Assembly: GCA_035353995.1 (NCBI GenBank)
Contig: DAOQAL010000001.1
Coordinates: forward strand, 4,020-68,019
Source of the DNA: Minisyncoccota bacterium
Lineage (GTDB): Bacteria > Patescibacteriota > Minisyncoccia > Phycocordibacterales > UBA9973
Direction: 5' to 3'
DNA length: 64,000 nt
The translations under genes and the position numbers were made by a program. Below, in pieces: positions 5,829-42,372 of this stretch (its first letter is position 1; each line of letters starts with the position of its first letter). The notes under the pieces are model-generated. The model saw only the letters and a program-made list of their open reading frames with translations, was not told the DNA's origin and made no database searches.

Positions 5829-6749
5829 TCACAAAAATAATATCAAACTTCCAAATATCATAATTAATATTGCTATAAGTTTTGGAATTAAAATACGTTT
5901 TGAAAGATTTTCTTTTGCTATTTTTGGTAAGAATTTAGTACAAAAAATAGTTAAACAAAGAACTATAGCTGGCTGAAAACTCTCAACTAGAAAAACCATT
6001 GTTACAGGAACAAGAAGAAGAGCAAAGTTAGCCAAAAGATTTCCTGAAACTGTAAGAATTTCGCTTCCCACATTAAGGAAAAAAATCTTTATACCACCTT
6101 TACTATTCATATGCATAAATTCTCTGCGATATTTTGGAATAAATATAAAAATAAATAAACCAGTAATACCAAGACCAAAATATTCCCAAAAAGAAGATAC
6201 CCAAAAATTACCATCTATTGTTACAAATTTAAAAATAACACCAGATATTGCTATTATAAGACAACAAAAAATCATATATAAAATGGGCTTTATTTTGACT
6301 TTTTTGCCTATGCCAGAAAAATTTATAGAAAGTATTACCAATCCAAAAATAATAATTATTGAACCCAAAATTTGATTTAATGTTAATGTTTCTCCTAGAC
6401 AAAAATATCCCAATATATAACCAAAAATAGGCACAGCTAAAAACCAAGGAACAACTGAGGATGTTTCTTCTATCTCAAGAGTAAATAAATAAAAAATAAC
6501 CCATACAATTGTCAAAATACCAGTAATAAATAATAAAATTATATCTAAAATTGGTATATCAAAAATATTATTAACAAAAATACTAATAACAGTAGCGATA
6601 AAAAGACCTATCAAACTTGAAAAAAGCACTAGACCACCAGAGCTTCGCTCTTTTTCTTTTTCTGAAAAATTAGATACTAAATAATTATCGACAATATTTA
6701 CTATGGCCCATAAAAATGTAGCAATAAAAGAAATAAGAAACCATTTCAT
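5829..6749 (-). CDS. EamA/DMT-family permease (10-TM, two EamA-like halves)
   Basis: A 306-aa polytopic membrane protein with internal duplication typical of the drug/metabolite transporter superfamily. Confidence 0.55.
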   Translation of the reverse strand: MKWFLISFIATFLWAIVNIVDNYLVSNFSEKEKERSSGGLVLFSSLIGLFIATVISIFVNNIFDIPILDIILLFITGILTIVWVIFYLFTLEIEETSSVVPWFLAVPIFGYILGYFCLGETLTLNQILGSIIIIFGLVILSINFSGIGKKVKIKPILYMIFCCLIIAISGVIFKFVTIDGNFWVSSFWEYFGLGITGLFIFIFIPKYRREFMHMNSKGGIKIFFLNVGSEILTVSGNLLANFALLLVPVTMVFLVESFQPAIVLCLTIFCTKFLPKIAKENLSKRILIPKLIAILIMIFGSLILFL

Positions 6750-10265: not shown

Positions 10266-11534
10266 TTAAAATTTTAATATTTTTGAGAATTTGTCCTTTT
10301 CTTTAAATGGACCAATGAGAGCTAAATTTAATTTTTCATCTTTAAATATCTCATTTGCCATTTTTTTTATTTCTTTTGAAGTAACTTTTCTTATTTCTTT
10401 TGCTTTTTCTTCTGCGTTTTTAATTTCTTTTTTAAGAAGTTCTTGTCCACCGTAAAAATTTGCTATATCATCGCTTGATTCGAGAGATAGTTTCATATTT
10501 CCTATCAAACATTCTTTTACTTTATTTAATTCTTCTTCTGAAACTAATTCGGTTTTTAATTTTTTACATTCATCAATAACAGCTTGTATAACTTCTTCGA
10601 TTCTTTTATTGTCTACACCAGCAGAAATTTCAAAAAATCCATGATCAGTATAAACATCATCATAAGCACGAACATAGTAGCCTACTCCCATTTCTTCGCG
10701 CAATTTTTGAAAAAGTCTTGAACTCATTCCTCCACCCAAAACTCCACCCAAAACAGATAATGCAATATTTTTTTTATTAAATAAATCATAAGTGCGAACA
10801 CCAAGAACAAAATGTGTTTGATCGGTATCTTTGAATTTTAATAATGTTTCAGGTGCAGATTGTTGTTCTTTTACTTTTTCTTTTTTAGCTTTTTTACCAC
10901 GAGAAATTTTACCAAATATTTTATTTGCTTCTTTTATAACTTCTTTTTGAGAAAGCTTACCTGCAACAACTAAAACAGTAGCTTCTGGTAGATAGTGAGC
11001 TTTTTTATATTTTACAAAATTTTCTCTTTTCATTTTCAAAATATTTTCTTTCTCTCCTGCAATATTCCAGCCAGCTGGTTGATCTCCGTATAAAAGTTTC
11101 ATAAAAAGATCTTGCACGTGTCTATTTGGCAAATCTTCATACATATTTATTTCTTCAATAATTACTCCTTTTTCTTTTTCAATTTCGGCTTCTGGAAAAG
11201 TAGAATTTAAATAAATGTCAGATACTATATCAAAAATTTTCTTAAAATGTTTAGCGTCAGATTTTGCATAATATCCTGTATATTCTTGTGCTGTAAAAGC
11301 ATTATATTGAGAACCAATAGCATCTAATTCTTTTGAAATATCTATTGCTTTTGGTCTTTTTATTGTCCCCTTGAAACACATGTGCTCAAGAAAATGTGAA
11401 ATACCATTATTATTTTTTTCTTCATATTTAGAACCAGCTTCTACTAACATCAAAACAGTAACCGTTGGATTATCTTTCATCGGCACTGTTATAACTTTCA
11501 AACCATTTTTTAAAACTTTTTTTGTATATTTCAT
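10266..11534 (-). CDS. M16-family zinc metallopeptidase (insulinase/pitrilysin-like)
   Basis: Inverted zincin motif HFLEHM (HxxEH) near the N-terminus, 422 aa, two-lobe M16 size. Confidence 0.8.
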   Translation of the reverse strand: MKYTKKVLKNGLKVITVPMKDNPTVTVLMLVEAGSKYEEKNNNGISHFLEHMCFKGTIKRPKAIDISKELDAIGSQYNAFTAQEYTGYYAKSDAKHFKKIFDIVSDIYLNSTFPEAEIEKEKGVIIEEINMYEDLPNRHVQDLFMKLLYGDQPAGWNIAGEKENILKMKRENFVKYKKAHYLPEATVLVVAGKLSQKEVIKEANKIFGKISRGKKAKKEKVKEQQSAPETLLKFKDTDQTHFVLGVRTYDLFNKKNIALSVLGGVLGGGMSSRLFQKLREEMGVGYYVRAYDDVYTDHGFFEISAGVDNKRIEEVIQAVIDECKKLKTELVSEEELNKVKECLIGNMKLSLESSDDIANFYGGQELLKKEIKNAEEKAKEIRKVTSKEIKKMANEIFKDEKLNLALIGPFKEKDKFSKILKF

Positions 11535-12448: not shown

Positions 12449-13774
12449 TTATGAAATTTCTTTTTTTATGAAATCAATAAGATTTGCAACCTTAACTCTC
12501 TCTTGTTTAGCAGTATCCCTATCGCGAACTGTCACTGCATCATCTTTTAGGGTATCAAAATCAACCACTATACAAAATGGTGTGCCTATTTCATCTTGTC
12601 GGCGATAACGTTTTCCAATATTGCCATTATCATCCCAAATTACTCGTCCAAATTCTTCTTTTAGTGGGGCAAAAACTTTTGTATTTGCGTATTCAACAAG
12701 TTCAGTTTTGTTTTTAAGAAGTGGAGAAACTGCACAAATTATTGGAGCTATACTTGGTTTAAATTTTAAATATGCTCTTATTTCTCCATCTTTTTCATCT
12801 TCTGCATAAGAAGAAAGTAAAAGTGCAAGAATTGCTCTATCAACACCAAATGTAGGTTCAATAACATGTGGAGTTATTTTTCCTTCACCTTCTTCATCTA
12901 CAAATTCAAGACCGTGGTTTTTCAAATCAAAATCAGTTCTATAAGCAAGACCGAAAAGTTCTTTTTGTCCAAAAGGATATTCAAATTCAAAATCAACTGT
13001 TCTACTTGAATAATGTGCTCTATCCCCTTCCTCTATTTCTACTTCATGAATTTTATTCATATCAATACCAACTTCTTCAATCCATTCAAGCATTTCTCCT
13101 TTCCAATATTCAAAATATTTTTCCCAATCTTCTTTTCTTGTGAAATATTCTATTTCCATCTGTTCAAATTCTCGAACTCTAAAAATAAAATCACGCGGAG
13201 TTATTTCATTTCTAAATGCTTTACCTATTTGAGCAATACCAAATGGAAGTTTAGGATGAAAAGCATCAACTGTATTTTTAAAATTAACAAAAATACCTTG
13301 TGCTGTTTCTGGACGGAGATATGAAATTGCAGAAGAATCTTCAGAAGCACCAATTTTAGTTTCAAACATCATATTGAATTTTTTTATTTCACCTAATTTA
13401 TTGCCACATTTAGGACATTTTTTAGGATCATCAATTTGATCTGCCCGAAATTTTTTATTGCACTTTTTACACTCAACCATTGGATCAGCAAAATTTTCAA
13501 CATGCCCAGCTTTTTGCCATACTTCTTGTCGCATTAATATAGAAGCATCAATTCCATACATATCTCTACGAGAATCTACAAATTTTTTCCACCAAGAATT
13601 TTTTACATTATTTTTAAGAGCGACGCCAAAATGTCCCCAGTCATATATACCTCCAAGTCCACCATAAATTTCTGAACCAGGAAAAATAAAACCACGTCTC
13701 TTGCAAAGAGATACTATTTTTTCCATCAAATCATTATCAATTTTTTCTTTTTTATCCATAATTATTTTATTCAA
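12449..13774 (-). CDS. glyQS: Glycyl-tRNA synthetase, dimeric alpha2 type
   Basis: N-terminal KRRGFIFPGSEIYGGLGGIYDWGHFG is the GlyRS hallmark. Class II motifs follow, with an inserted Zn-ribbon CKKCNKKF...CPKCGNK. Confidence 0.85.
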   Translation of the reverse strand: MNKIIMDKKEKIDNDLMEKIVSLCKRRGFIFPGSEIYGGLGGIYDWGHFGVALKNNVKNSWWKKFVDSRRDMYGIDASILMRQEVWQKAGHVENFADPMVECKKCNKKFRADQIDDPKKCPKCGNKLGEIKKFNMMFETKIGASEDSSAISYLRPETAQGIFVNFKNTVDAFHPKLPFGIAQIGKAFRNEITPRDFIFRVREFEQMEIEYFTRKEDWEKYFEYWKGEMLEWIEEVGIDMNKIHEVEIEEGDRAHYSSRTVDFEFEYPFGQKELFGLAYRTDFDLKNHGLEFVDEEGEGKITPHVIEPTFGVDRAILALLLSSYAEDEKDGEIRAYLKFKPSIAPIICAVSPLLKNKTELVEYANTKVFAPLKEEFGRVIWDDNGNIGKRYRRQDEIGTPFCIVVDFDTLKDDAVTVRDRDTAKQERVKVANLIDFIKKEIS

Positions 13775-15695
13775 TTACTCTAGCACCTGTTGGCACGAAA
13801 GATGGGTCACTTGTTAGTAAAGTATTTAATGATGATTTATTTACTTTAACATCAACATTAGCAAAATCATCATGTCCGGTCAAAGTCGTATCATTTATAA
13901 TCACTGGCATTGAACCGACTTGAGAAAGAGAAGGGGTAAAACCAATTTGGAAACTTACTTCTCTCTCTGTATCTGTAATGCCAGTACCGCGTGGCACTCC
14001 TCCTATACTCCATAATATTTCTCTCGTAGAAGCATTGTAAGATAAATCTTCTGTTGGAGGAGAAATTGTTCCAATAAACTTTGCCCATTTAGGCAAAGTA
14101 GAACGCACTTGTGTTCCTGAAATATTGTTTGATGTATTAGAAAGTGACCATACTATTGTATAAGTTGTTTCTCCTTCTGCTTTAGGAGGAATGCTTCCTG
14201 TATTTGTGAATGGGCCTGAATAATATAAAGCTTTTGTATTAAGACCAACATTCGAAATAATTTTAATTATCTTTGATTCTGAATTATCTAAACTCTTAAC
14301 TTCATCACCTAACAATGGTTGTTTTGCAGATATTGAAACATCTATTTGTATTGTCGGTTCAGAAAGCATTCCACTTGATGCTGTATAAAGAGGCAATGAT
14401 GACAAAGAAAAGTTTACAGAACCAGAATCTCCTGGATTTACTTCTGCAAATTTATTTTGATTATTTTTATCCCAGATAATAGTATCTATTGAAGAATTAT
14501 AATAACCTTGATTTACTTCTATTGTTTTACGATTTACAGCATTACCAGAAATTTTTGCACGAATTTCCATATCACTAACAGCTGTATCGAAGTTATTAGC
14601 CCAATTTATTTCTCCTGTAATCGTCGTGCTTGAATCTATTGCATATTCTCTCTGATATACGCCATTTACAACTAATTTTGCTTCTATAAATGGTTGTTTT
14701 ATAGCAACCGTATGTCCTAAAGAATTAAATACAATTCCTATCATAGATTTATCTGAGTCGCTTTGTGAACCACTAAAAATATGAAATGTTTTTTCTTCTC
14801 CATCAGAGACATCAATCATTTTTCCAACAATAGAAATATCTCTTTCTGTGCCGGGAGAAAGATCGCCTAAGCTCCATACATTATTACCCAATGATGGAGA
14901 TGGTGTAGCAGATTCAAATTGAAAACCTACAGGATAATCTAATTTAACTAAAATATTTGAAGCCGACTTGGTAGCATTTAATACTGCTTTCACATTTAAA
15001 ACAATATCTTGATTCTGAGTAACTTCTGTAGGAGCTTCTATAGACAGATCAATAGGAGCAGAACTTATTGAAACATCATATAATTTATCTTTTAAGAATA
15101 TAGCATTTGAATTTTGAACTCTATATTCTAAAGAAACTTTAATTTGGCGTGTGCTTCCTTGTTCACCAAAAAGAATAACTTTTACATTGCTTGTTTTTAC
15201 TCCGCCAGAAGGTATTGTTCCAAGTGATTCACGAACACGTTCAACTTCACCAGATAAATCACCTGAAGAACTTTTTGGATATTCTATAAGCAAATCAGCT
15301 AATTCAAGCGGTGAATTATTTTTATTTGTAATCTCTACTTGTAATGGAAGTTCTTCACCTCCTGCAGTAAATGTATTTCCAAGAATAGCAATTTCAATAT
15401 TACTGTTTGAAACAGTATTGCCACCAGCAAAAAACATATACGAAGCGTAACCGATAGCCAAAATAAAAAATGCTATTGAAAAAATAAAAAATTTTTTAAA
15501 CATAGATGTTTTTTTGAAGAATTTTTCTTGTAAATTCGCTGTACCTTTCTTTTCGTTTTCCCAAGAGTCTGGCACGTCTTTTTCTGCAAAATGTAAAAAA
15601 TTACTGCGAAGCTCTCTCTTTGTTTCATAATTTCTACTATTAAGTTTCGTTTTTATCTCTTCTATTCTATTTAACTTTTCATCGTCCTCTTGCAT
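13767..15695 (-). CDS. Large membrane-anchored extracytoplasmic protein, function unknown
   Basis: A 642-aa protein: about 70-aa charged N-terminal region, one TM helix (FFIFSIAFFILAIGYASYMFFA), then about 540 aa of Ser/Thr/Asn-rich, probably beta-rich ectodomain. Confidence 0.45.
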   Translation of the reverse strand: MQEDDEKLNRIEEIKTKLNSRNYETKRELRSNFLHFAEKDVPDSWENEKKGTANLQEKFFKKTSMFKKFFIFSIAFFILAIGYASYMFFAGGNTVSNSNIEIAILGNTFTAGGEELPLQVEITNKNNSPLELADLLIEYPKSSSGDLSGEVERVRESLGTIPSGGVKTSNVKVILFGEQGSTRQIKVSLEYRVQNSNAIFLKDKLYDVSISSAPIDLSIEAPTEVTQNQDIVLNVKAVLNATKSASNILVKLDYPVGFQFESATPSPSLGNNVWSLGDLSPGTERDISIVGKMIDVSDGEEKTFHIFSGSQSDSDKSMIGIVFNSLGHTVAIKQPFIEAKLVVNGVYQREYAIDSSTTITGEINWANNFDTAVSDMEIRAKISGNAVNRKTIEVNQGYYNSSIDTIIWDKNNQNKFAEVNPGDSGSVNFSLSSLPLYTASSGMLSEPTIQIDVSISAKQPLLGDEVKSLDNSESKIIKIISNVGLNTKALYYSGPFTNTGSIPPKAEGETTYTIVWSLSNTSNNISGTQVRSTLPKWAKFIGTISPPTEDLSYNASTREILWSIGGVPRGTGITDTEREVSFQIGFTPSLSQVGSMPVIINDTTLTGHDDFANVDVKVNKSSLNTLLTSDPSFVPTGARVIE

Positions 15696-15744: not shown

Positions 15745-16326
15745 TTACAAATGACTTTCACTAATAGCCTTATTTATCTCTGAAAGAATTTTTGTTCTCT
15801 TTTTGTCAGCTTCTAATACAAGTTTTTCATCAAAAGGAGTTTTAATTATCGTATTCAAAGAATTACTTGCACCGATATAACCTAAGTTGCTCAAAATTCT
15901 CAAAACTATTATGGCTTCAATATTTTGCAATTCATTTTTTGATTTTGATTTTTCTAAAAAAGACAAACCATTTAATAAATCATCGAATAAAGAAGAATTT
16001 GGCTCTTCACCAGCAAGTAACCTTTTTAGTAAATTTGATATGTTCGCAAAAATCATAAGTTTTTGTTTTTCTTTTTTTATTTCTTCAAGCTCTGGCGTTT
16101 TCAATGCATTTGTAATTCTCCAGTAATCTTTTCCACGTACAAAATCAATTTTTACATGAGAAAAATCTTGCAAAACGAAACGAAGTTTAGAAGAAATTTT
16201 TCTAATACCTTGAGCACTAGCATAAATCATTCCTAAGTCGCGAGTAAAAATAGCGTAGCTACGATCAGCCTCTTTAGTATTTCTACTGCTAAGTATTATA
16301 CCCTCCGTATGATAAATATGATGCAT
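15745..16326 (-). CDS. recO: DNA repair protein RecO (short form)
   Basis: N-terminal OB-fold signature TEGIILSSRNTKEADRSYAIFTRDLGMIYASAQGIRKISSKL...RGKDYWRIT matches the RecO consensus (EGIVLR..YGE.D.I..L.T...G...A.A.G.R...S). At 193 aa it lacks the Zn module. Confidence 0.6.
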   Translation of the reverse strand: MHHIYHTEGIILSSRNTKEADRSYAIFTRDLGMIYASAQGIRKISSKLRFVLQDFSHVKIDFVRGKDYWRITNALKTPELEEIKKEKQKLMIFANISNLLKRLLAGEEPNSSLFDDLLNGLSFLEKSKSKNELQNIEAIIVLRILSNLGYIGASNSLNTIIKTPFDEKLVLEADKKRTKILSEINKAISESHL

Positions 16327-19300
16327 TATTTCTCAATCTTTATTCGAAAAACAAGATTGTCGATTTTGATTTCCTCGCCTTGGTTTTCAGAAAATTTTAT
16401 TTCGGATGCCAAAACTGTTTTCTTTATATCTTTTTCAAATTTTTTAATTAATTTTTCTCCATCTTCTTGTGTCTTAATAAAGAGAACAATATTATCATTC
16501 GGTGTAAGTCCAGCCTTTTTACGCATATCTTGTACTGCTCGCACAAATTCTCTATAATTTCCTTCTTCTTTTAATTCTAGCGTTATTTCCATATCAAGTA
16601 AAACTTCTGTTTCAATATTTTTATTTTCTAGAACATCTTTTACATTTAATTCATCTTTTATAAGTTCTAAATATTTTTTATCAAGAGATAAATTTTTTAT
16701 TTCCATCTTTGCAAGAGGTTGTCTTACCGGAATTCCTCCTTTTTGTCTTTTTTCAAGTCCAATAGAAACAATTTTTCTTACATCTTCCATATTTTTTATT
16801 ATTTCTTGGTCTACTTTTTTATTTTCTGGCCAGCTTGCAAGATGTATACTTTCTTCATCTTTAAAGTTTTTTAACTTCAACCATATATCTTCGGCAGTAA
16901 ACGGAGCAAATGGAGCTATAATCTTAGATAGATTTTTTAAAACGAAGTACAAAGTCTGTCTAGCTTCACCATAATCCTTAAGAGTAATAGGCCTACTTGC
17001 TTCTTCTTTAATTCGATCACGAGAACGACGTAAATACCAAGTAGAAAGATCATTTATAAAATCACGAATTGCTCTTGTTGGCTCTAGAACTCTATAATTA
17101 TCCATATTTTCTACACAAAGAATATTTAATTCATCTAATTTAGACACAATCCACTGATCTAAAATATTTTCTGATTTTTTATATTCCAATTTTTCCAATT
17201 CAATGTCTCTATATAGTTCATAAAAAGCAAGCACATTATAAAGTAAACCAAAAACTTGTCGATGAAGTTCAACAACAGTTTTTTCATCAAAGTTTTTTGA
17301 TTCACCAGGCTGGTTTACTCCGTACATCCAAAGACGAAGAGTATCTACTCCATATTTATTAATCATTGACCATGGATCTACAACATTTCCAATAGACTTA
17401 GACATTTTTTTACCATTTGCATCCAAAAGTAAACCTAAACAAATAACATTTTTATATGCTTTACCTCGCCCCATTAATGTTCCCACAGCATGCAAAGTGT
17501 AAAACCATCCACGAGTTTGATCTATTGCTTCAGAAATAAAATCAGCCGGATATTTCAAATTTTTATTTTCAAAAAGTCCACCTTTAGCAAAATCGAATGG
17601 ATAATGATCCTGAGAAAACGGCATAGTTCCCGAATCAAGCCAAACATCCATTACTTCTTTTGTCCTTTCTAATTTTCCTCCACAAACTTGCCCTGAGCCT
17701 GTTGAATTAGAACAAATAAGTTCCGCCTCATCAATATAAGGTTTGTGTAAGTCTGGCATATAATCCTCGTCATGTGGCAGAGAAACAAATCCGAATTCTT
17801 TTATTTCTGCATTGTTTATAGAAACCAGAGGATCATGTTTGCTAGATAAATCCGAAAAAGAAAGTCCTTTCACAATAAAACTAATTGCTCGACTGGTTGA
17901 ACCTTGATGTCCTATAATTAAAATATTTTTATTATTATATTTTTTCTCAATTTCGTATAAGAATTCACCAACCCTTTTTACTAACTCCGCAAAACTTTCA
18001 CCACCAGGAAGAGATTCTTTCGGACTATCTAAGTAATCAAGGTCATAATATTTTTTAAATTCAGAGCGATCCTTTTTGTCAAAAACATTACTGGTTTCCA
18101 TCTCTTTTATACGGTCATCAAAAATTACTTTTTCAATTGGAAATCCAGTTTGTTTACAAAAGATCTCGGCTGTTTCTTTTGTACGTTCAAAAGGTGAAGA
18201 TATAATAATATCAATTTTTTCTTTGAAGTTTTTTGCACTTTCTATAACTTGCTCTTTGCCATTTTCTGTTAGTTTTGCACTATGATGTATATCTCTGGAA
18301 TTAACATTATCTTTAGCTATATTATTCATTGCTTCACCATGTCGCATAACAAAATATCTATTGCCTGATTTTTTAGTTTTTTCTTTCAAGTCAGCCACAC
18401 TGCCTATAACTTCTAATTTTCCACATTTACTGCATGTCCAAACAGGAAGTGGTGTTCCCCAATATCTCTCTCTGGAAATTGCCCAATCTTTTATTTCACG
18501 AAGCCATTCACCAAAACGTCCTTCTTTTATATGTGCTGGTTCCCAATTAATACCTTCGTTCTCTTTTACAAGTTTGTCTCTCAAAGATGACATTTTTATA
18601 TACCAAGAATCTCGTGCGTAATAAATAAGCGCAGTTTTACATCTCCAACAATGTGGATATGAGTGTTCGTATTTTTCTTTTTTTAATAAAAGTTCACGAT
18701 GTGCTAAGTCTTTTATAATATCTACAGCTACATCTTCATCACGAACAAATCTTCCTTCAAGAAAACCTGTTCCTGCTAAAAATTTTCCATCAAGACCAAC
18801 TAAATGATGTTTTGGTAAACCAATTTCTGTGCCCAGCATGAAGTCATCTTGTCCATACATTACAGCAGTATGCACAACTCCAGTTCCATCTTCAGTAGTA
18901 ACAAAACTAGCTGGATAAACTTTAAATGATTTTTCTAAATTCTCACCTTTTTTCTCAAGTTGTTCTTTCAAAAATGGATAAAGTGGTTCATATTCTAAAC
19001 CAATTAAATCTTTACCTTTAACCACATTTAATACCCTCTCCTCATGTGCCTCACCCATTAAATAAAGATCCATAAGATTTTGATTTTTAGGACCATTTTT
19101 ATCAACAACGGTATCTGGTGAAAAAATATATGAATTTCTAGTTCCATCATTTTCTGTTTTTGTAATAATCCAATATTTAACATTTTTATTTATAGCAAGC
19201 GCAACATTTCCTGGCAAAGTCCAAGGGGTAGTAGTCCATGCTATTATGTATGTATTTTCTGTTGTAGTGAAATTATCTATTTTCTGTCCAACTTTTAATT

Positions 19301-19934
19301 TAAATTTTACATAGACAGATAAATCTTTTACGTCTTGATAGCCTTGAGCAAGTTCATGGGAAGAAAGAGCTGTTCCACATCGTGGACACCATGGTACAAC
19401 TTTATAATCTTTATAAAGTAATTTTTGTTTATCTACTTCTTTTACTACATTCCAAACAGATTCAATATAATTATTGTGATATGTAACGTATGGATTTTTT
19501 TGATCAACCCAAAAACCAATTCGCTCTGTAAATTTTTCCCAAAGATCTACGTATTGCCAAACACTTTCTTTACATTTTTTATTAAATTTAGCAACTCCGT
19601 ATTCTTCAATTTCTTTTTTTGATTTTAAACCGAGTTCTTTTTCAACTTGCAATTCTACAGGCAAACCATGAGTATCCCAACCTCCTTTTCTGCGAACATA
19701 ATACCCTTTCATTGTTTTGTAACGTGGAATAACATCTTTAAAAGCTCTTGCTTCTAAATGATGAATTCCAGGTTTACCATTTGCAGTAGGTGGACCTTCG
19801 TAAAAAACGAAATCACCACTTGGTGCTTCTTTTTCTAAAGATTTTTCAAAAATTTTATTTTCTTTCCAAAATTTTAAAACTGCTTCTTCTTTTTTTGCTA
19901 TCTCACTTTTGTTTTTGTTTTCTTCTTTGTCCAT
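16326..19934 (-). CDS. ileS: Isoleucyl-tRNA synthetase with an embedded histidine-phosphatase-like domain
   Basis: Carries PPTANGKPGIHH (HIGH region), a CP1 editing region with TTPWTLP, WCPRCGTAL and WTCSKCG zinc knuckles, KMSKS (KKMSKSIGN) and an anticodon-binding C-terminus. It is 1202 aa because of an insertion of about 200 aa at residues ~525-725 (see findings). Confidence 0.9.
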   Translation of the reverse strand: MDKEENKNKSEIAKKEEAVLKFWKENKIFEKSLEKEAPSGDFVFYEGPPTANGKPGIHHLEARAFKDVIPRYKTMKGYYVRRKGGWDTHGLPVELQVEKELGLKSKKEIEEYGVAKFNKKCKESVWQYVDLWEKFTERIGFWVDQKNPYVTYHNNYIESVWNVVKEVDKQKLLYKDYKVVPWCPRCGTALSSHELAQGYQDVKDLSVYVKFKLKVGQKIDNFTTTENTYIIAWTTTPWTLPGNVALAINKNVKYWIITKTENDGTRNSYIFSPDTVVDKNGPKNQNLMDLYLMGEAHEERVLNVVKGKDLIGLEYEPLYPFLKEQLEKKGENLEKSFKVYPASFVTTEDGTGVVHTAVMYGQDDFMLGTEIGLPKHHLVGLDGKFLAGTGFLEGRFVRDEDVAVDIIKDLAHRELLLKKEKYEHSYPHCWRCKTALIYYARDSWYIKMSSLRDKLVKENEGINWEPAHIKEGRFGEWLREIKDWAISRERYWGTPLPVWTCSKCGKLEVIGSVADLKEKTKKSGNRYFVMRHGEAMNNIAKDNVNSRDIHHSAKLTENGKEQVIESAKNFKEKIDIIISSPFERTKETAEIFCKQTGFPIEKVIFDDRIKEMETSNVFDKKDRSEFKKYYDLDYLDSPKESLPGGESFAELVKRVGEFLYEIEKKYNNKNILIIGHQGSTSRAISFIVKGLSFSDLSSKHDPLVSINNAEIKEFGFVSLPHDEDYMPDLHKPYIDEAELICSNSTGSGQVCGGKLERTKEVMDVWLDSGTMPFSQDHYPFDFAKGGLFENKNLKYPADFISEAIDQTRGWFYTLHAVGTLMGRGKAYKNVICLGLLLDANGKKMSKSIGNVVDPWSMINKYGVDTLRLWMYGVNQPGESKNFDEKTVVELHRQVFGLLYNVLAFYELYRDIELEKLEYKKSENILDQWIVSKLDELNILCVENMDNYRVLEPTRAIRDFINDLSTWYLRRSRDRIKEEASRPITLKDYGEARQTLYFVLKNLSKIIAPFAPFTAEDIWLKLKNFKDEESIHLASWPENKKVDQEIIKNMEDVRKIVSIGLEKRQKGGIPVRQPLAKMEIKNLSLDKKYLELIKDELNVKDVLENKNIETEVLLDMEITLELKEEGNYREFVRAVQDMRKKAGLTPNDNIVLFIKTQEDGEKLIKKFEKDIKKTVLASEIKFSENQGEEIKIDNLVFRIKIEK

Positions 19935-19949
19935 AAAAAATATTTATTA

Positions 19950-20160
19950 TCAAATAAAAAAATCGTCCACGTACAACAATAAAAATTGTTATACAAGGAC
20001 GATTTTTTCGCTAGCGGTGAGCATAGTCGAATCGTGGTACCACCTTGTTTCTCTCCTTTACGGAGACTCAATTACAGCTATAACGGGCATACCCGCCGAG
20101 CTCTACTTGCCTTTCGGCTTTCTCCTCGGTGCTCCAGAGTGATAACTCCTTCAATGCTTT
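19950..20160 (-). promoter_or_regulatory. T-box riboswitch-like leader of ileS (Ile specifier)
   Basis: On the minus strand: promoter TTGTAA-17-TATAAT, Stem I region containing AUC-A (rc of + 20141-20143), T-box core AAGGUGGUACCACG (rc of + 20033-20046), and a terminator hairpin (+ 19964-20001) followed by a U-run directly before the ileS ATG. Confidence 0.6.
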
Positions 20161-20239
20161 AGTTTGATTATACTCACAAATTCGAGAAATTACAACAAAC
20201 ATTAACCCCCTTGCATTTTAAAAAAGAAGATGGCATACT

Positions 20240-20803
20240 CCCAAATAGAGTAACTGTTCTTTTTGCCTCAAATTCGCGACTTGAGAGATTCTCGGGAACG
20301 AGAAACCCTGTCTTTGTGCCCCACAAAAGTGGGTGGAAAGTTAGAAGAACAGTCTCCTTAATATTAGATTACCCGCAAAAAGCGGTTCAATGATGGATGC
20401 AAATTTCTGTTTTTACGAAAAATCTCGCCAACCGTACCCGGGAAAAGGGACTTATCTCGAGAAAAGCCCCTGTGTATAAGCGGTAACGGAAATGAATCAC
20501 ACACTGGAAAAACATTGCCATAAACCGAATAGGTGCACACTTTGGAATGCCAGTGTGGTCAGGTGTCAAAGCTGGACAAAATTGTGTCCAGAAAAATACG
20601 TGTCGCAGGCGCTGTCATACGGTATACCTAGTTTAGATTCAGCATTCATCCAAGCTCAATTATCCTTTCCGGTGGGAGGCGCTGAGCACGCATTACAGGC
20701 ATTACCCGGAAATTATTCTTCCCAGCCAGCCATAACCATAATGGTTCATGAAATTTCGCCGGAGAAGAGCAGAGCCGTCCCAAGTTATCGGACGGCTTTT
20801 TTT
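20240..20803 (+). ncRNA. Unassigned GC-rich structured RNA candidate (about 550 nt), with promoter TTGCAT-17-CATACT at 20211-20239 and a plus-strand intrinsic terminator at 20774-20803
   Basis: GC content is clearly above the flanking coding DNA. There are multiple local hairpins, including a GNRA-type UCUCG-GGAA-CGAGA, CCCAC-AAAAG-UGGG and CUGGACA-N6-UGUCCAG, plus a long-range complementarity 20262-20276 / 20346-20360. No credible ORF. The ending GCCGTCC-N9-GGACGGC-TTTTTTT works as a terminator only on the plus strand. Strand and identity are uncertain. Confidence 0.35.
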
Positions 20804-20821
20804 ATTTTATCTACTTCCGGG

Positions 20822-22573
20822 TTACATTTTTTCTGGAGTTTTTATACCAAGAAGCCAGAGACCATTTTTCATAGTCTGATAAAAAGATTTAACAAGTTCT
20901 AAATGATAAATAATATATTTATTATCATTTTCTAAAATTTTTGTATTTCCATAAAAAGTATTAAATGCGCTAGCAAGTTCTACAAGATAAGTAGCTATAT
21001 AATGTGGAGCAAATTCTTTATAAGAACGATTTACTATTTCTACAAATTGATAAAGCATTTTTTCTAAATCTGTAATTTCTTTTGGAATTTCTTTGCCATT
21101 TTTTAAATTAAATTCTTTGGATTTTTGAATAATTGAATTTGCACGAACAGCCGTATATTGTAAATAAGGCCCAGAATCACCCTCAAAAGAAATTGATTTT
21201 TCAAAATCAAAAATAATATCACTTCCGATTGAAGATTTTAATATGGAATATTTTAAAGATGAAACTCCAACAATTTCAGCAATATTTTCTTTTTCTATAT
21301 CAGAAAATTCTCGTTTAGAAATTTTTTCTCTAATCATATTTAACGAATCGTTAAGTAATGATTCACCAGTTACTATATTTCCTTTTCTAGATGACATCTT
21401 TCCATCTGCCAAACGCATCATACCGTGAGTAATATGTTTCATTCTCTTTTCTAAATCAGGATGCATAATAGAAATTGCTTTTTGTACAACTCTCATATAT
21501 TCAGCTTGTTCACTAGCAGTTGTTACAATAGATAAATCTAATTTTTTTCCAAATAAATTTTTCTTAAATTTAGTTAGTGTTAAACCCAATTCTTTGGCTT
21601 CGTACGTTGGTAATTGTTGAGAATTTACAAACACTCTCGTATGCAATTTTGGGTCATATTTCTCACCATGAAAAACGATAGCCCCATCAGATTCTTCAAA
21701 AATATTTCCTATATTTTTTTCCACAATCTTTTTACCGATTTCAGCCATTTCAGATTCAAAATAATATTTATCAAATTTTGTACCAAGCAATTTATATATT
21801 TCTTCAAATGCTTCTAGAGTTATTTTTCTTCCCCAATTATATATTTTATTTATTTCATCATCAGTTTTATCGTAAATTTTTTTATTTATTATATCAATTT
21901 CTTTTTTAGCATTTTCATCATTTTCGTAAGCATCATTTCCTTTTACATAAATTTCTCCTATAAAACGCGCTTTTTCTGCAATCGTTTTTTTTGTATCAGG
22001 TAAACCAAATTTTTTTAATCCATAAATAGCTTTTGCTACATGAGGACCGACATCGCCTTGATAATTTGCGCGAATCACTTCTGCTCCAGAAAATTCAACA
22101 ATTCTAGAAATTGATTCCCCTATTGCATTACTCATTAAGTGCCCAATATGAAATGGTTTAAAAGGATTTGGTTGAGTATATTCAATCATAACTTTTTTAC
22201 CTAACAATGTTTTTTCTTTTCCCCAATTCTCTTTTTGTTTTAAAATTTCTTTTACACTATAGGTAAAAAATTCTCGTGATAAATAAAAATTTATAAAACC
22301 AGGACCAGCAATTTCTATTTTTTCTATTTCTTTAATTTTATTTTTTAGTAACTCTTCAACTATTTTTACAGCAAGATCTCTTGGTGTTTTTTCTAATTGT
22401 TTTGAACAAGCAAGAGCTACATTAGTAGAATAGTCCCCATTATTAAAATTCTCTGGATGCTCAACTACAAATTCACTATCCCATTCTATTTCAAGATTTT
22501 TTAAAGCATCCCTGATTAAATTTTTTATTCGTTCTTTCATCTTATTTATGACCAGTCGTTCCAAAACCTCCAC
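20822..22573 (-). CDS. argS: Arginyl-tRNA synthetase
   Basis: Add-1 N-terminal domain, HIGH motif PFHIGHLMS, and a DALR-type anticodon-binding C-terminus ending in M. 583 aa. Confidence 0.9.
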   Translation of the reverse strand: MEVLERLVINKMKERIKNLIRDALKNLEIEWDSEFVVEHPENFNNGDYSTNVALACSKQLEKTPRDLAVKIVEELLKNKIKEIEKIEIAGPGFINFYLSREFFTYSVKEILKQKENWGKEKTLLGKKVMIEYTQPNPFKPFHIGHLMSNAIGESISRIVEFSGAEVIRANYQGDVGPHVAKAIYGLKKFGLPDTKKTIAEKARFIGEIYVKGNDAYENDENAKKEIDIINKKIYDKTDDEINKIYNWGRKITLEAFEEIYKLLGTKFDKYYFESEMAEIGKKIVEKNIGNIFEESDGAIVFHGEKYDPKLHTRVFVNSQQLPTYEAKELGLTLTKFKKNLFGKKLDLSIVTTASEQAEYMRVVQKAISIMHPDLEKRMKHITHGMMRLADGKMSSRKGNIVTGESLLNDSLNMIREKISKREFSDIEKENIAEIVGVSSLKYSILKSSIGSDIIFDFEKSISFEGDSGPYLQYTAVRANSIIQKSKEFNLKNGKEIPKEITDLEKMLYQFVEIVNRSYKEFAPHYIATYLVELASAFNTFYGNTKILENDNKYIIYHLELVKSFYQTMKNGLWLLGIKTPEKM

Positions 22574-38935: not shown

Positions 38936-38953
38936 ATTCTTATTATAACAAAA

Positions 38954-38978
38954 AATTCCCCTTCTGGGGAATTTTTTG
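38954..38978 (-). terminator. Terminator hairpin between the CARDB-protein gene and pilB
   Basis: AATTCCCC-TTCT-GGGGAATT palindrome with T/A runs on both sides. Confidence 0.45.
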
Positions 38979-38996
38979 TTATCTATAAAATAAATT

Positions 38997-42206: not shown

Positions 42207-42372
42207 ATAAAAATTGTTAATAATATTAAAATAAACTTTGCATTTTAATAATAACATATTTTAAACAACCTATTATATAAATGTTAATAACTAAACAAAA
42301 AAAAGGGGCATGGACAAAATCCAACCCCGATTTTTTATATAGTCTCCATATCTCAAAACAACGAGAATAGAG

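What the first reader, a model, noticed from the sequence alone, without database searches (positions are those of the whole stretch)
17762..18362. Complete histidine-phosphatase (PGM-like) domain embedded inside isoleucyl-tRNA synthetase
IleS is 1202 aa. Between the conserved WTCSKCGKLEVIGSVADLKEK segment and DLHKPYIDE (normally a few residues apart) there are about 200 aa with every hallmark of the histidine-phosphatase superfamily, branch 1. These are the RHG motif (FVMRHGEAMNN, catalytic His plus Asn), the SSPxxR motif (IIISSPFERTKETAEI), the general-acid Glu context (PGGESFAELVKR) and the C-terminal His motif (ILIIGHQGSTSR). The reading frame is continuous and the flanking IleRS motifs (HIGH region, CP1, KMSKS) are intact, so this looks like a real in-frame domain acquisition rather than a gene fusion artefact. 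I do not know of an aaRS carrying a phosphomonoesterase-type domain. Possible roles are hydrolysis of a phosphorylated tRNA end or nucleotide, an alarmone or Ap4A-related activity, or a regulatory phosphatase; all of these are speculation.
Basis: partly seen in the sequence, partly recalled or inferred. Interest (0 to 1): 0.85.

Follow-up and report, generated by a model that had tools for sequence, protein, structure and literature searches.

The report
Phosphatase domain inserted inside isoleucyl-tRNA synthetase
The isoleucyl-tRNA synthetase of this tiny-genome (Patescibacteria) bacterium really carries a complete, apparently active histidine-phosphatase domain, which is a separate gene next to ileS in related lineages, and nobody seems to have described it or to know what it dephosphorylates.

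Summary
Window 16326-19934 (- strand) is one open frame of 1202 aa. It is a type-2 IleRS (TIGR00392, 847 bits) with a ~198-aa His_Phos_1 domain (PF00300, E 4e-26) inserted in a loop that is 4-25 residues long in insert-less IleRS.

It is not an assembly artefact. All 120 best homologues and at least 416 GTDB species (Nomurabacteria, Paceibacteria and relatives) have it. R531, H532, R584, E611 and H676 are essentially invariant, although the insert evolves faster than the IleRS body.

Main new result: the closest free-standing relatives (188-198 aa) lie directly upstream of an insert-less ileS, in the same argS-X-ileS-recO synteny. None of 80 insert-bearing loci has a separate copy nearby. A neighbouring gene in some lineages is therefore an internal domain in others.

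ValRS of Gracilibacteria and Peregrinibacteria carries 1-4 His_Phos domains at the homologous loop. Some IleRS add a second copy or a C-terminal HD domain.

The substrate is unknown. My best guess, at about 0.2, is removal of a blocking phosphate from the tRNA 3' end. Six literature searches and targeted term searches inside four of the retrieved papers found no description. Minor corrections: the general acid is E611, not the GGES Glu, and the HIGH motif is the swapped GxHH form.

The parts
16326..19934 (-). ileS: type-2 isoleucyl-tRNA synthetase with an internal phosphatase domain, 1202 aa plus stop codon
   Evidence: ORF. TIGR00392 ileS equivalog 847 bits against a cut-off of 621. Best PDB matches are IleRS2 8c8w and 1ile.
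18378..19934 (-). IleRS N-terminal part (residues 1-519): first half of the catalytic fold, CP1/editing domain, and the connective peptide up to the first Cys pair
   Evidence: Pfam tRNA-synt_1 at 19-526. Aligns to 8c8w residues 7-475. The editing motif WTTTPWTLP is visible in the translation.
17784..18377 (-). Inserted histidine-phosphatase (branch 1) domain, residues about 520-717
   Evidence: PF00300 at residues 528-716, E 4.2e-26. Absent from five insert-less orthologues, which have a short loop here. AF2 pLDDT 85-95 in the full-length model. Foldseek top hits are PspA, GpgP, CobC and PhoE.
18336..18344 (-). RHG motif: R531, H532 (predicted phospho-accepting nucleophile), G533
   Evidence: R, H and G in 120/120 close homologues. 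R and H in 59/59 diverse IleRS inserts, 27/27 free-standing relatives and 79/79 ValRS inserts.
18183..18185 (-). R584, second phosphate-binding Arg (SSPxxR motif)
   Evidence: 119/120; 59/59 and 27/27.
18102..18104 (-). E611, probable general acid (D-x-R-I-x-E motif)
   Evidence: 113/120 with 5 gaps. E or D in 59/59 inserts and 27/27 free-standing relatives. Invariant in the diverse alignment A2.
17907..17909 (-). H676, second active-site His (IGHQG)
   Evidence: 120/120; 59/59 and 27/27.
18423..18434 (-). C501-x2-C504, first Cys pair of the zinc knuckle that hosts the insert
   Evidence: Both Cys in 120/120. Present in the insert-less orthologues.
17682..17714 (-). C741...C751, second Cys pair of the same knuckle, after the insert
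   Evidence: C741 in 119/120. C746 in the trimmed numbering (= C751) is invariant in 74 sequences.
16326..17783 (-). IleRS C-terminal part (residues 718-1202): DLHKPYID segment, second half of the catalytic fold, KMSKS (17394-17408), anticodon-binding domain and the type-2 C-terminal domain
   Evidence: Aligns to 8c8w residues 480-870 and beyond. Anticodon_1 at 926-1075 and DUF5915 at 1080-1202. KMSKS position.
19758..19769 (-). GIHH (residues 56-59): swapped GxHH version of the class I HxGH signature
   Evidence: Seen in the alignment to 8c8w (GVHH mutant) and 8c8u (HVGH). At least 90% conserved in 74 homologues. Meaning taken from PMC10485003.
19992..20163 (-). T-box leader of ileS with a very short stem I. 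The hairpin loop UUAUCA carries the Ile specifier AUC (20141-20143). The UGGU bulge is followed by a terminator hairpin (about 19957-20008).
   Evidence: RF00230 at 55.3 bits, E 4e-11, below the gathering score of 93; 76 model positions of stem I are replaced by 6 nt. Sequence read directly.

Best explanation
SHOWN. The gene is the T-box(Ile)-controlled type-2 isoleucyl-tRNA synthetase of a Paceibacteria/Nomurabacteria-type bacterium. A complete ~198-residue branch-1 histidine-phosphatase domain is inserted in frame at the tip of a Cys4 zinc-knuckle hairpin. This hairpin lies in the connective-peptide region between the editing domain and the second half of the catalytic fold. The domain keeps the full catalytic set: R531/H532 (RHG), N538, R584, E611 and H676.

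Its nearest free-standing relatives share a subfamily signature, N-x-Y-F-x-[LM]-RHG. They are 188-198-aa genes wedged between argS and an insert-less ileS in other Patescibacteria. Loci with the insert never have the separate gene nearby.

INFERRED. An operon partner of ileS was captured as an internal domain, so the protein is bifunctional. The phosphatase works by the standard phospho-histidine mechanism: H532 attacks a phosphomonoester, R531/R584/H676 hold the phosphate, and E611 protonates the leaving group. It is functionally coupled to the synthetase.

COMMITTED GUESS for the substrate: a phosphate on the ribose of the 3'-terminal adenosine of tRNA-Ile. This would be a 2'/3'-phosphate left by nuclease or toxin damage, or by pyrophosphorylation. 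It blocks charging and would be removed while the tRNA is held by IleRS.

Probabilities:
- Architecture real and domain catalytically competent: about 0.9.
- Functionally coupled to IleRS: about 0.65.
- This particular substrate: about 0.2.
For: Architecture:
- Pfam and NCBIfam hits and a clean insertion relative to 8c8w.
- Five insert-less orthologues, 38-47% identical outside the insert, define the boundaries.
- The insert folds confidently and matches only histidine phosphatases.

Conservation:
- 120 of 120 best homologues have PF00300.
- At least 416 GTDB species carry it.
- Catalytic residues are invariant, while the insert is only 48% identical on average against 76% for the IleRS body. 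This points to selection on catalysis.

Link to ileS:
- Of 9 free-standing relatives examined, 5 lie 3-113 bp upstream of an insert-less ileS of 935-962 aa in argS-X-ileS-recO order. These are P0202, P0256, P0233, P0216 and P0395.
- A sixth, P0225, is followed by a gene cut off at the contig end that is probably ileS.
- 8 of the 9 lie downstream of argS, 7 of them directly adjacent (P0234 follows a seven-gene defence-type island).
- This is the window's own synteny.
- 0 of 80 insert-bearing loci have a second His_Phos within 4 kb, and there is none elsewhere in the window.
- The signature residues N525 and Y527 are shared by inserts and free-standing proteins but not by ValRS inserts.

Recurrence: ValRS of Gracilibacteria and Peregrinibacteria have 1-4 His_Phos domains at the homologous loop after the IPVW motif. 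Some IleRS carry a second copy about 80 aa after KMSKS.

Nucleotide or RNA-end theme: 9 of 80 related loci also have an HD-domain phosphohydrolase (PF01966, 30 bits) fused to, or directly after, the C-terminus of the same IleRS.

Housekeeping role of the gene: an Ile-specifier T-box lies upstream, KMSKS and the editing motifs are intact, and there is no second ileS in the 64 kb.
Against: - No activity or substrate was tested.
- All characterised close structural relatives (PspA, GpgP, CobC, PhoE, TIGAR) act on small molecules, and I know of no branch-1 histidine phosphatase that acts on an RNA end.
- The full-length model has pTM 0.45 with a poorly predicted catalytic core. The position of the phosphatase pocket relative to the synthetic site or the tRNA is therefore unknown.
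- Inserts occur at three or four different sites and in up to 4 tandem copies. This argues against a precise geometric coupling.
- A 3'-end repair activity would be useful for all tRNAs, not only tRNA-Ile or tRNA-Val.
- Adjacency could itself have caused the capture, without any functional link.
- Two insert-less valS loci had no His_Phos neighbour.
- Genes in these compact operons (recO, an amino-acid-kinase family gene) are not all functionally related.
Confidence: 0.4

Rival explanations
1. Hitch-hiking metabolic phosphatase. The domain is an ordinary small-molecule phosphatase (for example a phosphoserine, sugar-phosphate or nucleotide phosphatase) that the cell needs for its own sake. Because its gene lay next to ileS, a local rearrangement dropped it into a permissive surface loop. 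It is retained because both activities are needed, with no mechanistic link to aminoacylation.
For: - The best sequence and structure matches are metabolite phosphatases: PspA, GpgP, CobC, a riboflavin-pathway phosphatase, and PhoE.
- The domain has the usual cap region of small-molecule enzymes.
- The insertion site tolerates variable loop lengths in orthologues.
- IleRS of these organisms tolerates other in-frame passengers: an IS200-type transposase domain and a GNAT in P0218, and the NCBIfam model ileS_w_GNAT exists.
- Several insertion sites and tandem copies suggest that tethering geometry is unimportant.
Against: - The argS-X-ileS adjacency is conserved across free-standing proteins that are mostly only about 30-36% identical to P0202 (one is 43%), and across IleRS 38-47% identical to the window's.
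- A distinct His_Phos subfamily was inserted independently at the homologous loop of ValRS.
- Scores against every curated metabolite-phosphatase equivalog are far below cut-off. Examples: dPGM_arch 59 against 225, PspA 49 against 350, CobC 62 against 163.
- The cap region, which normally reads the substrate, is the least conserved part.
Confidence: 0.3
2. Self-protecting protein phosphatase. The domain removes a phosphate placed on the synthetase itself, for example on the Ser of the KMSKS loop. This is the site that HipA/HipT-type kinase toxins phosphorylate in GluRS and TrpRS (my knowledge of that literature). It would thereby restore aminoacylation.
For: - The two IleRS insertion sites bracket the KMSKS loop in the sequence, about 110 aa before and about 80 aa after.
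- Some branch-1 members (SixA, PGAM5, Sts-1) are protein phosphatases (my knowledge).
- The free-standing gene sits between two class I synthetase genes.
- One free-standing copy lies beside a defence-gene island.
Against: - No kinase targeting IleRS or ValRS is known to me, and none was seen in the loci.
- The domain resembles the capped small-molecule type rather than the open SixA type. The window protein has no SixA hit at the E-value limit of 1e-10 used for that NCBIfam scan.
- Three-dimensional proximity to KMSKS could not be measured.
Confidence: 0.12
3. Product-clearing enzyme. The domain hydrolyses a small product or by-product of the synthetase reaction next to where it is released (pyrophosphate, AMP, or adenosine polyphosphates). 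This would pull activation and editing cycles forward in organisms with minimal nucleotide metabolism.
For: - IleRS and ValRS are the two synthetases with costly editing cycles, and both acquired the domain.
- Tethering without strict geometry fits a diffusible substrate.
- An HD-type phosphohydrolase is also attached in some relatives.
- Related histidine phosphatases such as PhoE accept nucleotides (my knowledge).
Against: - Every synthetase makes PPi and AMP, so a free enzyme would serve better.
- Branch-1 enzymes are not known as pyrophosphatases.
- The presence or absence of ppa in these genomes could not be checked with the 64-kb window.
Confidence: 0.12
4. Catalytically silent module. 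The fold is kept as a structural, tRNA-binding or regulatory (phospho-metabolite-sensing) appendage, without turnover.
For: - Appended aaRS domains are often RNA-binding (general knowledge).
- Some ValRS copies have lost H676 (9 of 71 have Asn) or E611.
- Four of the six free-standing relatives checked are basic, with pI 9.0-9.8.
Against: In IleRS inserts and free-standing relatives the whole catalytic set is invariant at 30-40% overall identity. This is not expected for a purely structural role. The insert in the window is not basic (pI 6.9).
Confidence: 0.05
5. Artefact. A mis-assembly or frameshift joins a phosphatase gene to two halves of ileS.
For: None, beyond the unusual architecture. 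Raw reads were not available.
Against: - The same architecture occurs in 120 of 120 homologues from NCBI, JGI, ENA and Logan assemblies, on contigs up to 598 kb.
- At least 416 species genomes carry it.
- Most of the 80 independent loci have one long frame running through the insert (about 50 of at least 1150 aa); by a strict motif test, 43 carry all four landmark motifs.
- An identical protein is found on 4 contigs.
- There is no GC or skew break at the junctions.
Confidence: 0.01

Closest known systems
Type-2 isoleucyl-tRNA synthetase (IleRS2), e.g. Priestia megaterium IleRS2 (PDB 8C8U/8C8W) and Thermus thermophilus IleRS (1ILE)
   Same: Same enzyme family over the whole length outside the insert (E 5e-228). 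It shares the CP1 editing domain, KMSKS, the anticodon-binding domain and the type-2 C-terminal domain (DUF5915). The GxHH signature variant is described for part of IleRS2 (PMC10485003).
   Different: About 198 extra residues forming a phosphatase domain sit where PmIleRS2 has about 4 residues (475-480). A study of 96,219 IleRS sequences with domain annotation (bioRxiv 10.64898/2026.02.03.703510) does not contain the word 'phosphatase' or mention Patescibacteria.
Short branch-1 histidine phosphatases: PspA phosphoserine phosphatase (4IJ5/4IJ6), CobC alpha-ribazole phosphatase (6E4B, 3HJG), GpgP Rv2419c (4PZ9), PhoE (1H2E)
   Same: Same fold (Foldseek E 5e-11 to 1e-7, TM 0.6-0.7), same size (about 200 aa), and the same catalytic residues.
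   Different: Only 17-26% identical. The window protein is below every curated equivalog cut-off. It has its own subfamily signature, N-x-Y-F-x-[LM]-RHG. It is embedded in another enzyme, and its substrate is unknown.
Free-standing 188-198-aa His_Phos_1 genes between argS and ileS in other Patescibacteria (P0202, P0233, P0256, P0216, P0395; e.g. GCA_003555075.1 PWHW01000001.1)
   Same: These are the closest free-standing relatives of the insert among the best 150 hits in 1.84 billion representatives (E about 1e-17 to 1e-20, 33-38% identity over the matched stretches; 29-36% in the tblastn alignments). They have the same signature residues and the same chromosomal neighbourhood.
   Different: They are a separate polypeptide, and the adjacent IleRS has only a short loop at the insertion site. 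They are annotated only as 'histidine phosphatase family protein' and are uncharacterised.
ValRS of Gracilibacteria and Peregrinibacteria with 1-4 internal His_Phos_1 domains (P0157, P0272, P0293 and others)
   Same: A class Ia synthetase with the same kind of domain inserted at the homologous loop, between P-[IL]-P-V-W and D-x-x-D-x-W-[FL]-[DS]-S. The catalytic R/H/R are conserved.
   Different: A different synthetase and a different bacterial class. The inserts form a separate group in a crude NJ tree and lack the N525/Y527 signature. They often occur in tandem copies, and some copies have lost H676 or E611. These are also undescribed in the literature searched.
Synthetases or nucleic-acid enzymes carrying an extra enzyme domain: NCBIfam NF040702 'isoleucine--tRNA ligase, N-acetyltransferase domain-containing', and NF005567 'bifunctional RNase H/acid phosphatase' (Rv2228c type)
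   Same: These are precedents for (a) an IleRS with an added catalytic domain and (b) a CobC-like histidine phosphatase fused to an enzyme that handles nucleic acids.
   Different: The window protein is far below both cut-offs (330 against 1999, and 62 against 326). Here the phosphatase is inserted inside the catalytic body rather than appended.

Membership tests
Histidine phosphatase superfamily, branch 1 (Pfam PF00300) | Profile match above the curated threshold over most of the domain | tested here: met
   92.2 bits against a cut-off of 21.7, E 4.2e-26, profile positions 2-186 of 194.
Histidine phosphatase superfamily, branch 1 (Pfam PF00300) | RHG motif with the nucleophilic His, plus a second Arg and a second His forming the phosphate pocket | tested here: met
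   R531, H532, G533, R584 and H676 are present and 119-120 of 120 conserved. They are invariant in 59 diverse inserts.
Histidine phosphatase superfamily, branch 1 (Pfam PF00300) | Acidic general acid (Glu in the R-L-x-E motif) | tested here: met
   E611 in DDRIKEME. It is invariant in alignment A2 and is E or D in all inserts and free-standing relatives. The assignment rests on motif correspondence, not on a structure.
Histidine phosphatase superfamily, branch 1 (Pfam PF00300) | Alpha/beta phosphoglycerate-mutase-like fold | tested here: met
   The AF2 insert model has pTM 0.77. 273 PDB matches have E <= 0.001, and all 50 listed are histidine phosphatases or dPGMs, TM 0.52-0.71 across the listed matches.
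Histidine phosphatase superfamily, branch 1 (Pfam PF00300) | Phosphomonoesterase or mutase activity through a phospho-His intermediate | not testable with these tools
   Needs an enzyme assay.
Isoleucyl-tRNA synthetase, type 2 (TIGR00392 ileS) | Equivalog model above cut-off | tested here: met
   847 bits against a cut-off of 621, matched in two stretches split by the insert.
Isoleucyl-tRNA synthetase, type 2 (TIGR00392 ileS) | Class I signature motifs (HxGH and KMSKS) | tested here: met
   KMSKS is at 843-847 and invariant. The first signature is the GxHH variant (GIHH 56-59), which PMC10485003 reports as functional in IleRS2.
Isoleucyl-tRNA synthetase, type 2 (TIGR00392 ileS) | CP1 editing domain and type-2 C-terminal domain | tested here: met
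   WTTTPWT and GTGVVH are visible in the translation. It aligns to the isolated Tth editing domain 1wk8 at residues 198-428. DUF5915 is at 1080-1202.
Isoleucyl-tRNA synthetase, type 2 (TIGR00392 ileS) | It is the cell's working IleRS (Ile-specific regulation, single copy) | tested here: inconclusive
   The upstream T-box has an AUC specifier and a terminator, and there is no second ileS in the 64 kb. The rest of the genome could not be searched.
Cofactor-dependent phosphoglycerate mutase (dPGM) | Curated equivalog score | tested here: not met
   dPGM_arch scores 58.9 against a cut-off of 225. The bacterial GpmA models give no hit for the window protein.
CobC alpha-ribazole phosphatase / PspA phosphoserine phosphatase | Curated equivalog score | tested here: not met
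   ribazole_cobC 62.1 against 162.9; PRK15004 44 against 250; PhserinePhPspA 49 against 350.
Intein or other self-splicing insert | HINT fold and nucleophilic junction residues (Cys/Ser at the N-junction; His-Asn followed by Cys/Ser/Thr at the C-junction) | tested here: not met
   The insert is a His_Phos fold. The junction sequences KKSGNRYF and LPHDEDYMPDLH lack the required nucleophiles.
Rosetta-stone (gene neighbour / fused domain) pair | The same two components occur as separate adjacent genes in some genomes and as one polypeptide in others, and the two states are mutually exclusive | tested here: met
   The two genes are separate and adjacent in 5 of 9 free-standing cases, with one more probable. 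They are fused in at least 416 species. 0 of 80 fused loci have a second copy within 4 kb.

The most novel reading that the evidence does not exclude
The phosphatase is a built-in repair or immunity activity of class Ia synthetases. Held next to the tRNA acceptor-end path, it would strip an inhibitory phosphate from the 3'-terminal ribose of tRNA. In relatives that also carry the C-terminal HD domain, it would do so after a 2',3'-cyclic phosphate has been opened. Alternatively it would strip the phosphate from the synthetase's own KMSKS loop. Either way it would reverse damage by ribonuclease, kinase or pyrophosphokinase toxins. That would be a new kind of quality-control step in aminoacylation, beside hydrolytic editing.
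Probability: 0.25. Interest if true: 0.9.

Novelty: new variant of a known kind. Interest (0 to 1): 0.7.

Why it matters
Aminoacyl-tRNA synthetases are among the most studied enzymes, and their added domains usually reveal new biology such as editing, tRNA binding or signalling.

Here a catalytically intact phosphomonoesterase sits inside the catalytic body of the essential IleRS in hundreds of Patescibacteria species. A related domain sits at the same loop of ValRS in another class of the same radiation. In sister lineages the same phosphatase is an operon partner of ileS. Together these observations say that some phosphate-removal step is tied to Ile/Val-tRNA synthesis in these minimal, host-dependent bacteria. 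No such step is part of the textbook aminoacylation cycle.

The finding gives a directly testable system: one recombinant protein, one point mutant (H532A) and a short list of candidate substrates. It also explains why NCBI's pipeline names these proteins only 'class I tRNA ligase family protein'. If the substrate proves to be an ordinary metabolite, the case is still a clean example of a neighbouring gene captured into a permissive loop of an essential enzyme.

Tried and rejected
1. Assembly or frameshift artefact: rejected.
2. Intein-like selfish insert: rejected. The fold is wrong and the junctions lack splicing nucleophiles.
3. True dPGM, CobC or PspA orthologue: rejected, because the curated cut-offs are not met.
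4. Reading the relative position of the two active sites from a full-length AF2 model: failed. pTM was 0.45, the Rossmann core had pLDDT below 50, and no coordinates are returned.
5. The GC-rich 650-bp spacer between argS and the T-box as a decayed copy of the free-standing phosphatase gene: no tblastn signal. It also has no Rfam family, no conservation in 80 related loci and only a weak folding z-score of -1.74.
6. A free-standing His_Phos gene next to insert-less valS, as a second Rosetta-stone case: not found in two loci.
It was redone with a closer alignment.
8. Searching with the free-standing protein P0202 in the word-indexed database gave only 8 hits and no names.
9. Literature: six searches, plus term searches inside four of the retrieved papers (three on IleRS, one review on organophosphorus natural products), found no description of the architecture. 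A seventh search concerned CP2 nomenclature only.
10. Sequence search of the HD extension against the PDB gave nothing informative.
11. The NJ tree of the domains is crude and has no support values. It was used only to note that ValRS inserts group apart while IleRS inserts and free-standing proteins intermix.

Full report
**Observation**

The window holds one uninterrupted ORF on the minus strand, 16326..19934, of 1202 aa. Pfam finds tRNA-synt_1 split in two, His_Phos_1 (PF00300) at residues 528-716 (92 bits, E 4.2e-26, profile positions 2-186 of 194), Anticodon_1 and DUF5915. NCBIfam calls the protein ileS (TIGR00392, 847 bits against a cut-off of 621).

The best solved relatives are type-2 IleRS: P. 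megaterium 8c8w and T. thermophilus 1ile. In the alignment to 8c8w, query residues 8-517 pair with 7-475 and query residues 721-1126 pair with 480-870. About 200 residues therefore sit where the solved enzyme has about four. There is no composition break at the junctions.

**Where the insert sits**

Five insert-less orthologues recovered later are 38-47% identical to the window's IleRS outside the insert. They have only 6-25 residues between '...IGS..EL' and 'DLH(K/R)PYID'. The site lies between two Cys pairs (C501/C504 and C741/C751) that are conserved with and without the insert. It is therefore the tip of a zinc-knuckle hairpin.

In PmIleRS2 the catalytic (HUP) core is given as residues 40-168 and 513-632 (PMC10485003). 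Residue 475-480 thus belongs to the connective-peptide region after the editing domain. That paper calls the region CP2. PMC11685878 divides the same region into CP core, CP2 and CP3.

**Is it real and is it alive?**

- All 120 best database homologues (61-69% identical, from NCBI, JGI, ENA and Logan assemblies, on contigs up to 598 kb) carry PF00300.
They are named Nomurabacteria, Paceibacteria/Paceibacterota, Minisyncoccia, Zambryskibacteria and Parcubacteria RAAC4_OD1_1.
- In most of the 80 loci fetched, one long frame runs through the insert, and in about 50 of them it is at least 1150 aa. By a strict motif test, 43 of the 80 carry all four landmark motifs.
- R531, H532, G533, N538, R584, E646, R654 and H676 are conserved in 119-120 of 120 sequences. 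R, H, R, E611 and H stay invariant in inserts only 30-43% identical to this one.
- The insert as a whole evolves faster than the synthetase body: 48% mean pairwise identity against 76%. The invariant catalytic set therefore indicates selection on catalysis.
- The domain is predicted confidently, with pLDDT 85-95 within the full-length model and pTM 0.77 when modelled alone. Its structural neighbours are all branch-1 histidine phosphatases of the short type: PspA, GpgP, CobC, PhoE, TIGAR and a riboflavin-pathway phosphatase.
- It reaches no curated equivalog cut-off for dPGM, CobC, PspA or GpmB.

The general acid is most likely E611 (D-x-R-I-x-E), not the Glu of GGES. The first class I signature is GIHH, the swapped GxHH form that PMC10485003 associates with mupirocin hyper-resistance in IleRS2.

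**Origin: the neighbour became a domain**

I searched 1.84 billion representative proteins with the insert alone. This returned mainly IleRS, complete or fragmentary. It also returned a set of complete proteins of about 190 aa, one of which is named 'histidine phosphatase family protein [Candidatus Paceibacterota]'.

I looked up nine of these free-standing proteins:

- Five (P0202, P0256, P0233, P0216, P0395) lie 3-113 bp upstream of an ileS of 935-962 aa without PF00300.
- A sixth (P0225) is followed by a gene cut off at the contig end that is probably ileS.
- Eight of the nine lie downstream of argS. Seven are directly adjacent; P0234 follows a seven-gene defence-type island.
- The common order is argS - HisPhos - ileS - recO - CLIPPER/DUF11 protein - class II synthetase - M16 peptidase.

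This is exactly the order in the window: argS 20822-22573, ileS, recO 15745-16326, DUF11 protein 13767-15695, class II synthetase 12449-13774, M16 peptidase 10266-11534.

Conversely, none of the 80 insert-bearing loci has a second His_Phos within 4 kb. Among the 53 loci with full flanks, argS is upstream in 33 and recO is downstream in 48. The window has no other His_Phos homologue, and no remnant in the argS-ileS spacer.

Inserts and free-standing proteins share the signature N-x-Y-F-x-[LM]-RHG (N525 in 53 of 59 inserts and 27 of 27 free-standing proteins). ValRS inserts lack it. In a crude NJ tree the IleRS inserts and the free-standing proteins intermix. The simplest reading is that an operon partner of ileS was captured into the loop, possibly more than once, or was occasionally released again.

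**A wider pattern**

- The same representative search also hit P0157. This is a ValRS (PPPNVTG motif; NCBIfam valS) with four His_Phos domains.
- Searching with P0157 showed that many ValRS of Gracilibacteria and Peregrinibacteria (1040-1626 aa) carry PF00300. Their closest insert-less relatives are 880-930 aa.
- The main ValRS site is about 20 residues after the IPVW motif and before D-x-L-D-T-W-F-S-S. This is the loop homologous to the IleRS site. A second ValRS site follows QWF.
- Some IleRS have a second His_Phos about 80 residues after KMSKS: P0152, P0247, P0259 and P0143.
- ValRS inserts group apart from the IleRS and free-standing set, so the ValRS acquisition looks independent.
- In 9 of the 80 related IleRS loci an HD-domain phosphohydrolase with an intact H...HD...D pattern is present. 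It scores PF01966 at 30 bits against a cut-off of 22. It is fused in frame to the C-terminus in 7 loci and lies immediately downstream in 2. The window's protein lacks it.

**The gene is the working IleRS**

A T-box leader lies upstream at 19992-20163. It scores 55 bits (E 4e-11), below Rfam's gathering score, because stem I is reduced to a hairpin. The hairpin loop UUAUCA presents AUC (Ile) followed by A. The UGGU bulge and a terminator hairpin follow. KMSKS, the editing motifs and the anticodon-binding domains are intact. No second ileS lies in the 64 kb. The rest of the genome could not be examined.

**Mechanism**

Shown: the architecture, the conservation of the catalytic set, the fold, the gene-neighbour/fusion relationship, and the recurrence in ValRS.

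Inferred: the domain is an active phosphomonoesterase using the family's phospho-His chemistry, and it serves the synthetase.

I could not place its pocket relative to the synthetic site or the tRNA.

My committed guess, at about 0.2, is removal of a blocking 2'/3'-phosphate or pyrophosphate from the terminal adenosine of tRNA-Ile while it is held by IleRS. The reasons are these:

- The insert lies in the connective-peptide region. Large rotations of the CP core and editing domain in this region govern passage of the CCA end between the editing and synthetic sites (PMC11685878).
- The substrate-reading cap is poorly conserved, as if specificity came from the host enzyme.
- An HD domain accompanies the insert in some relatives. 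From my knowledge, the HD family supplies the 2',3'-cyclic phosphodiesterase/phosphatase of E. coli CCA-adding enzyme.

The reasons against are these:

- All characterised relatives act on small molecules.
- The varied insertion sites and copy numbers argue against strict geometry.
- Such a repair activity would not be specific to Ile or Val.

The main rival, at about 0.3, is a metabolite phosphatase that was simply captured from next door into a permissive loop. Other rivals are a self-directed protein phosphatase acting on the KMSKS loop (0.12), product clearing of PPi or AMP (0.12) and a silent structural module (0.05). Artefact is excluded for practical purposes.

**Comparison with what is known, and novelty**

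Both parts belong to well-known families, and the membership tests are met for each. The combination was not found in the literature held here. Six searches returned nothing relevant. A 2026 survey of 96,219 IleRS sequences with domain annotation does not contain the word 'phosphatase'.

The proteins are in public databases, mostly named 'class I tRNA ligase family protein'. NCBIfam does recognise an IleRS with a GNAT domain and an RNase H/acid phosphatase fusion, so extra catalytic domains on such enzymes have precedents.

I rate this a new variant of a known kind. It is real, widespread, evolutionarily informative and experimentally tractable, but its function is unresolved. Interest 0.7.

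Noticed in passing
window 19992-20163 (- strand); specifier 20141-20143; terminator about 19957-20008: There is a T-box leader upstream of ileS with stem I reduced to a 4-bp hairpin whose loop UUAUCA presents the Ile codon AUC. It scores 55 bits, below Rfam's gathering score of 93, so a default scan misses it. It resembles the ultrashort-stem-I ileS T-boxes I recall from Actinobacteria.
   Followed up: partly
window 20164-20821: A 650-bp spacer between argS and the T-box has GC 0.43-0.45 in a genome of about 0.30 GC. It has no Rfam family, tRNA or tmRNA, no similarity in 80 related loci, no His_Phos remnant, and a folding z-score of only -1.74. The 136-aa ORF at 20492-20902 (+) looks non-coding. 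The region is unexplained.
   Followed up: partly
window 19758-19769 (- strand), residues 56-59: The class I HxGH signature is the swapped form GIHH, and it is conserved in at least 90% of 74 homologues. PMC10485003 links GxHH in IleRS2 to mupirocin hyper-resistance.
   Followed up: partly
L003, L005, L006, L020, L045, L065, L078 (in-frame C-terminus, about 5900-6600); L009 6053-6673; L035 4278-4895: In 9 of 80 related species the insert-bearing IleRS also has an HD-domain phosphohydrolase of about 200 aa (PF01966, H...HD...D intact). It is fused to the C-terminus or encoded immediately downstream. It is absent from the window, and its subfamily is unknown.
   Followed up: partly
proteins P0157, P0273, P0298, P0304 and about 70 others: ValRS of Gracilibacteria and Peregrinibacteria carry one to four His_Phos_1 domains at the loop after IPVW, and sometimes after QWF. 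A minority of the ValRS copies aligned have lost the second His or the Glu.
   Followed up: partly
proteins P0152, P0247, P0259, P0143: These IleRS variants have a second His_Phos_1 domain about 80 residues after KMSKS, giving proteins of 1380-1420 aa.
   Followed up: no
protein P0218 (1066 aa): This is an IleRS-like protein with an in-frame IS200-type Y1 transposase domain (340-461) inside the connective peptide. It also has a His_Phos_1 domain (680-854) and a C-terminal GNAT (935-1063). It may be chimeric or truncated.
   Followed up: no
L081 2204-7354: One free-standing His_Phos gene (P0234, Paceibacterota) lies next to a cluster of defence-type genes (AbiEii, NERD, MazG-like, SLFN-type helicase, DUF3800). 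The cluster is inserted between argS and the M16 peptidase region, with no ileS nearby.
   Followed up: no
window 16324-16328: The recO start codon overlaps the ileS stop codon (ORFs 15745..16326 and 16326..19934). This suggests translational coupling in an argS-ileS-recO operon.
   Followed up: no
window 37187-42257 (- strand): A 1086-aa CARDB-repeat protein lies next to a T2SSE/MshEN secretion or pilus ATPase. A DUF11/CLIPPER-type 642-aa protein lies at 13767-15695. Both are likely cell-surface and pilus components, of the kind I would expect in Patescibacteria.
   Followed up: no
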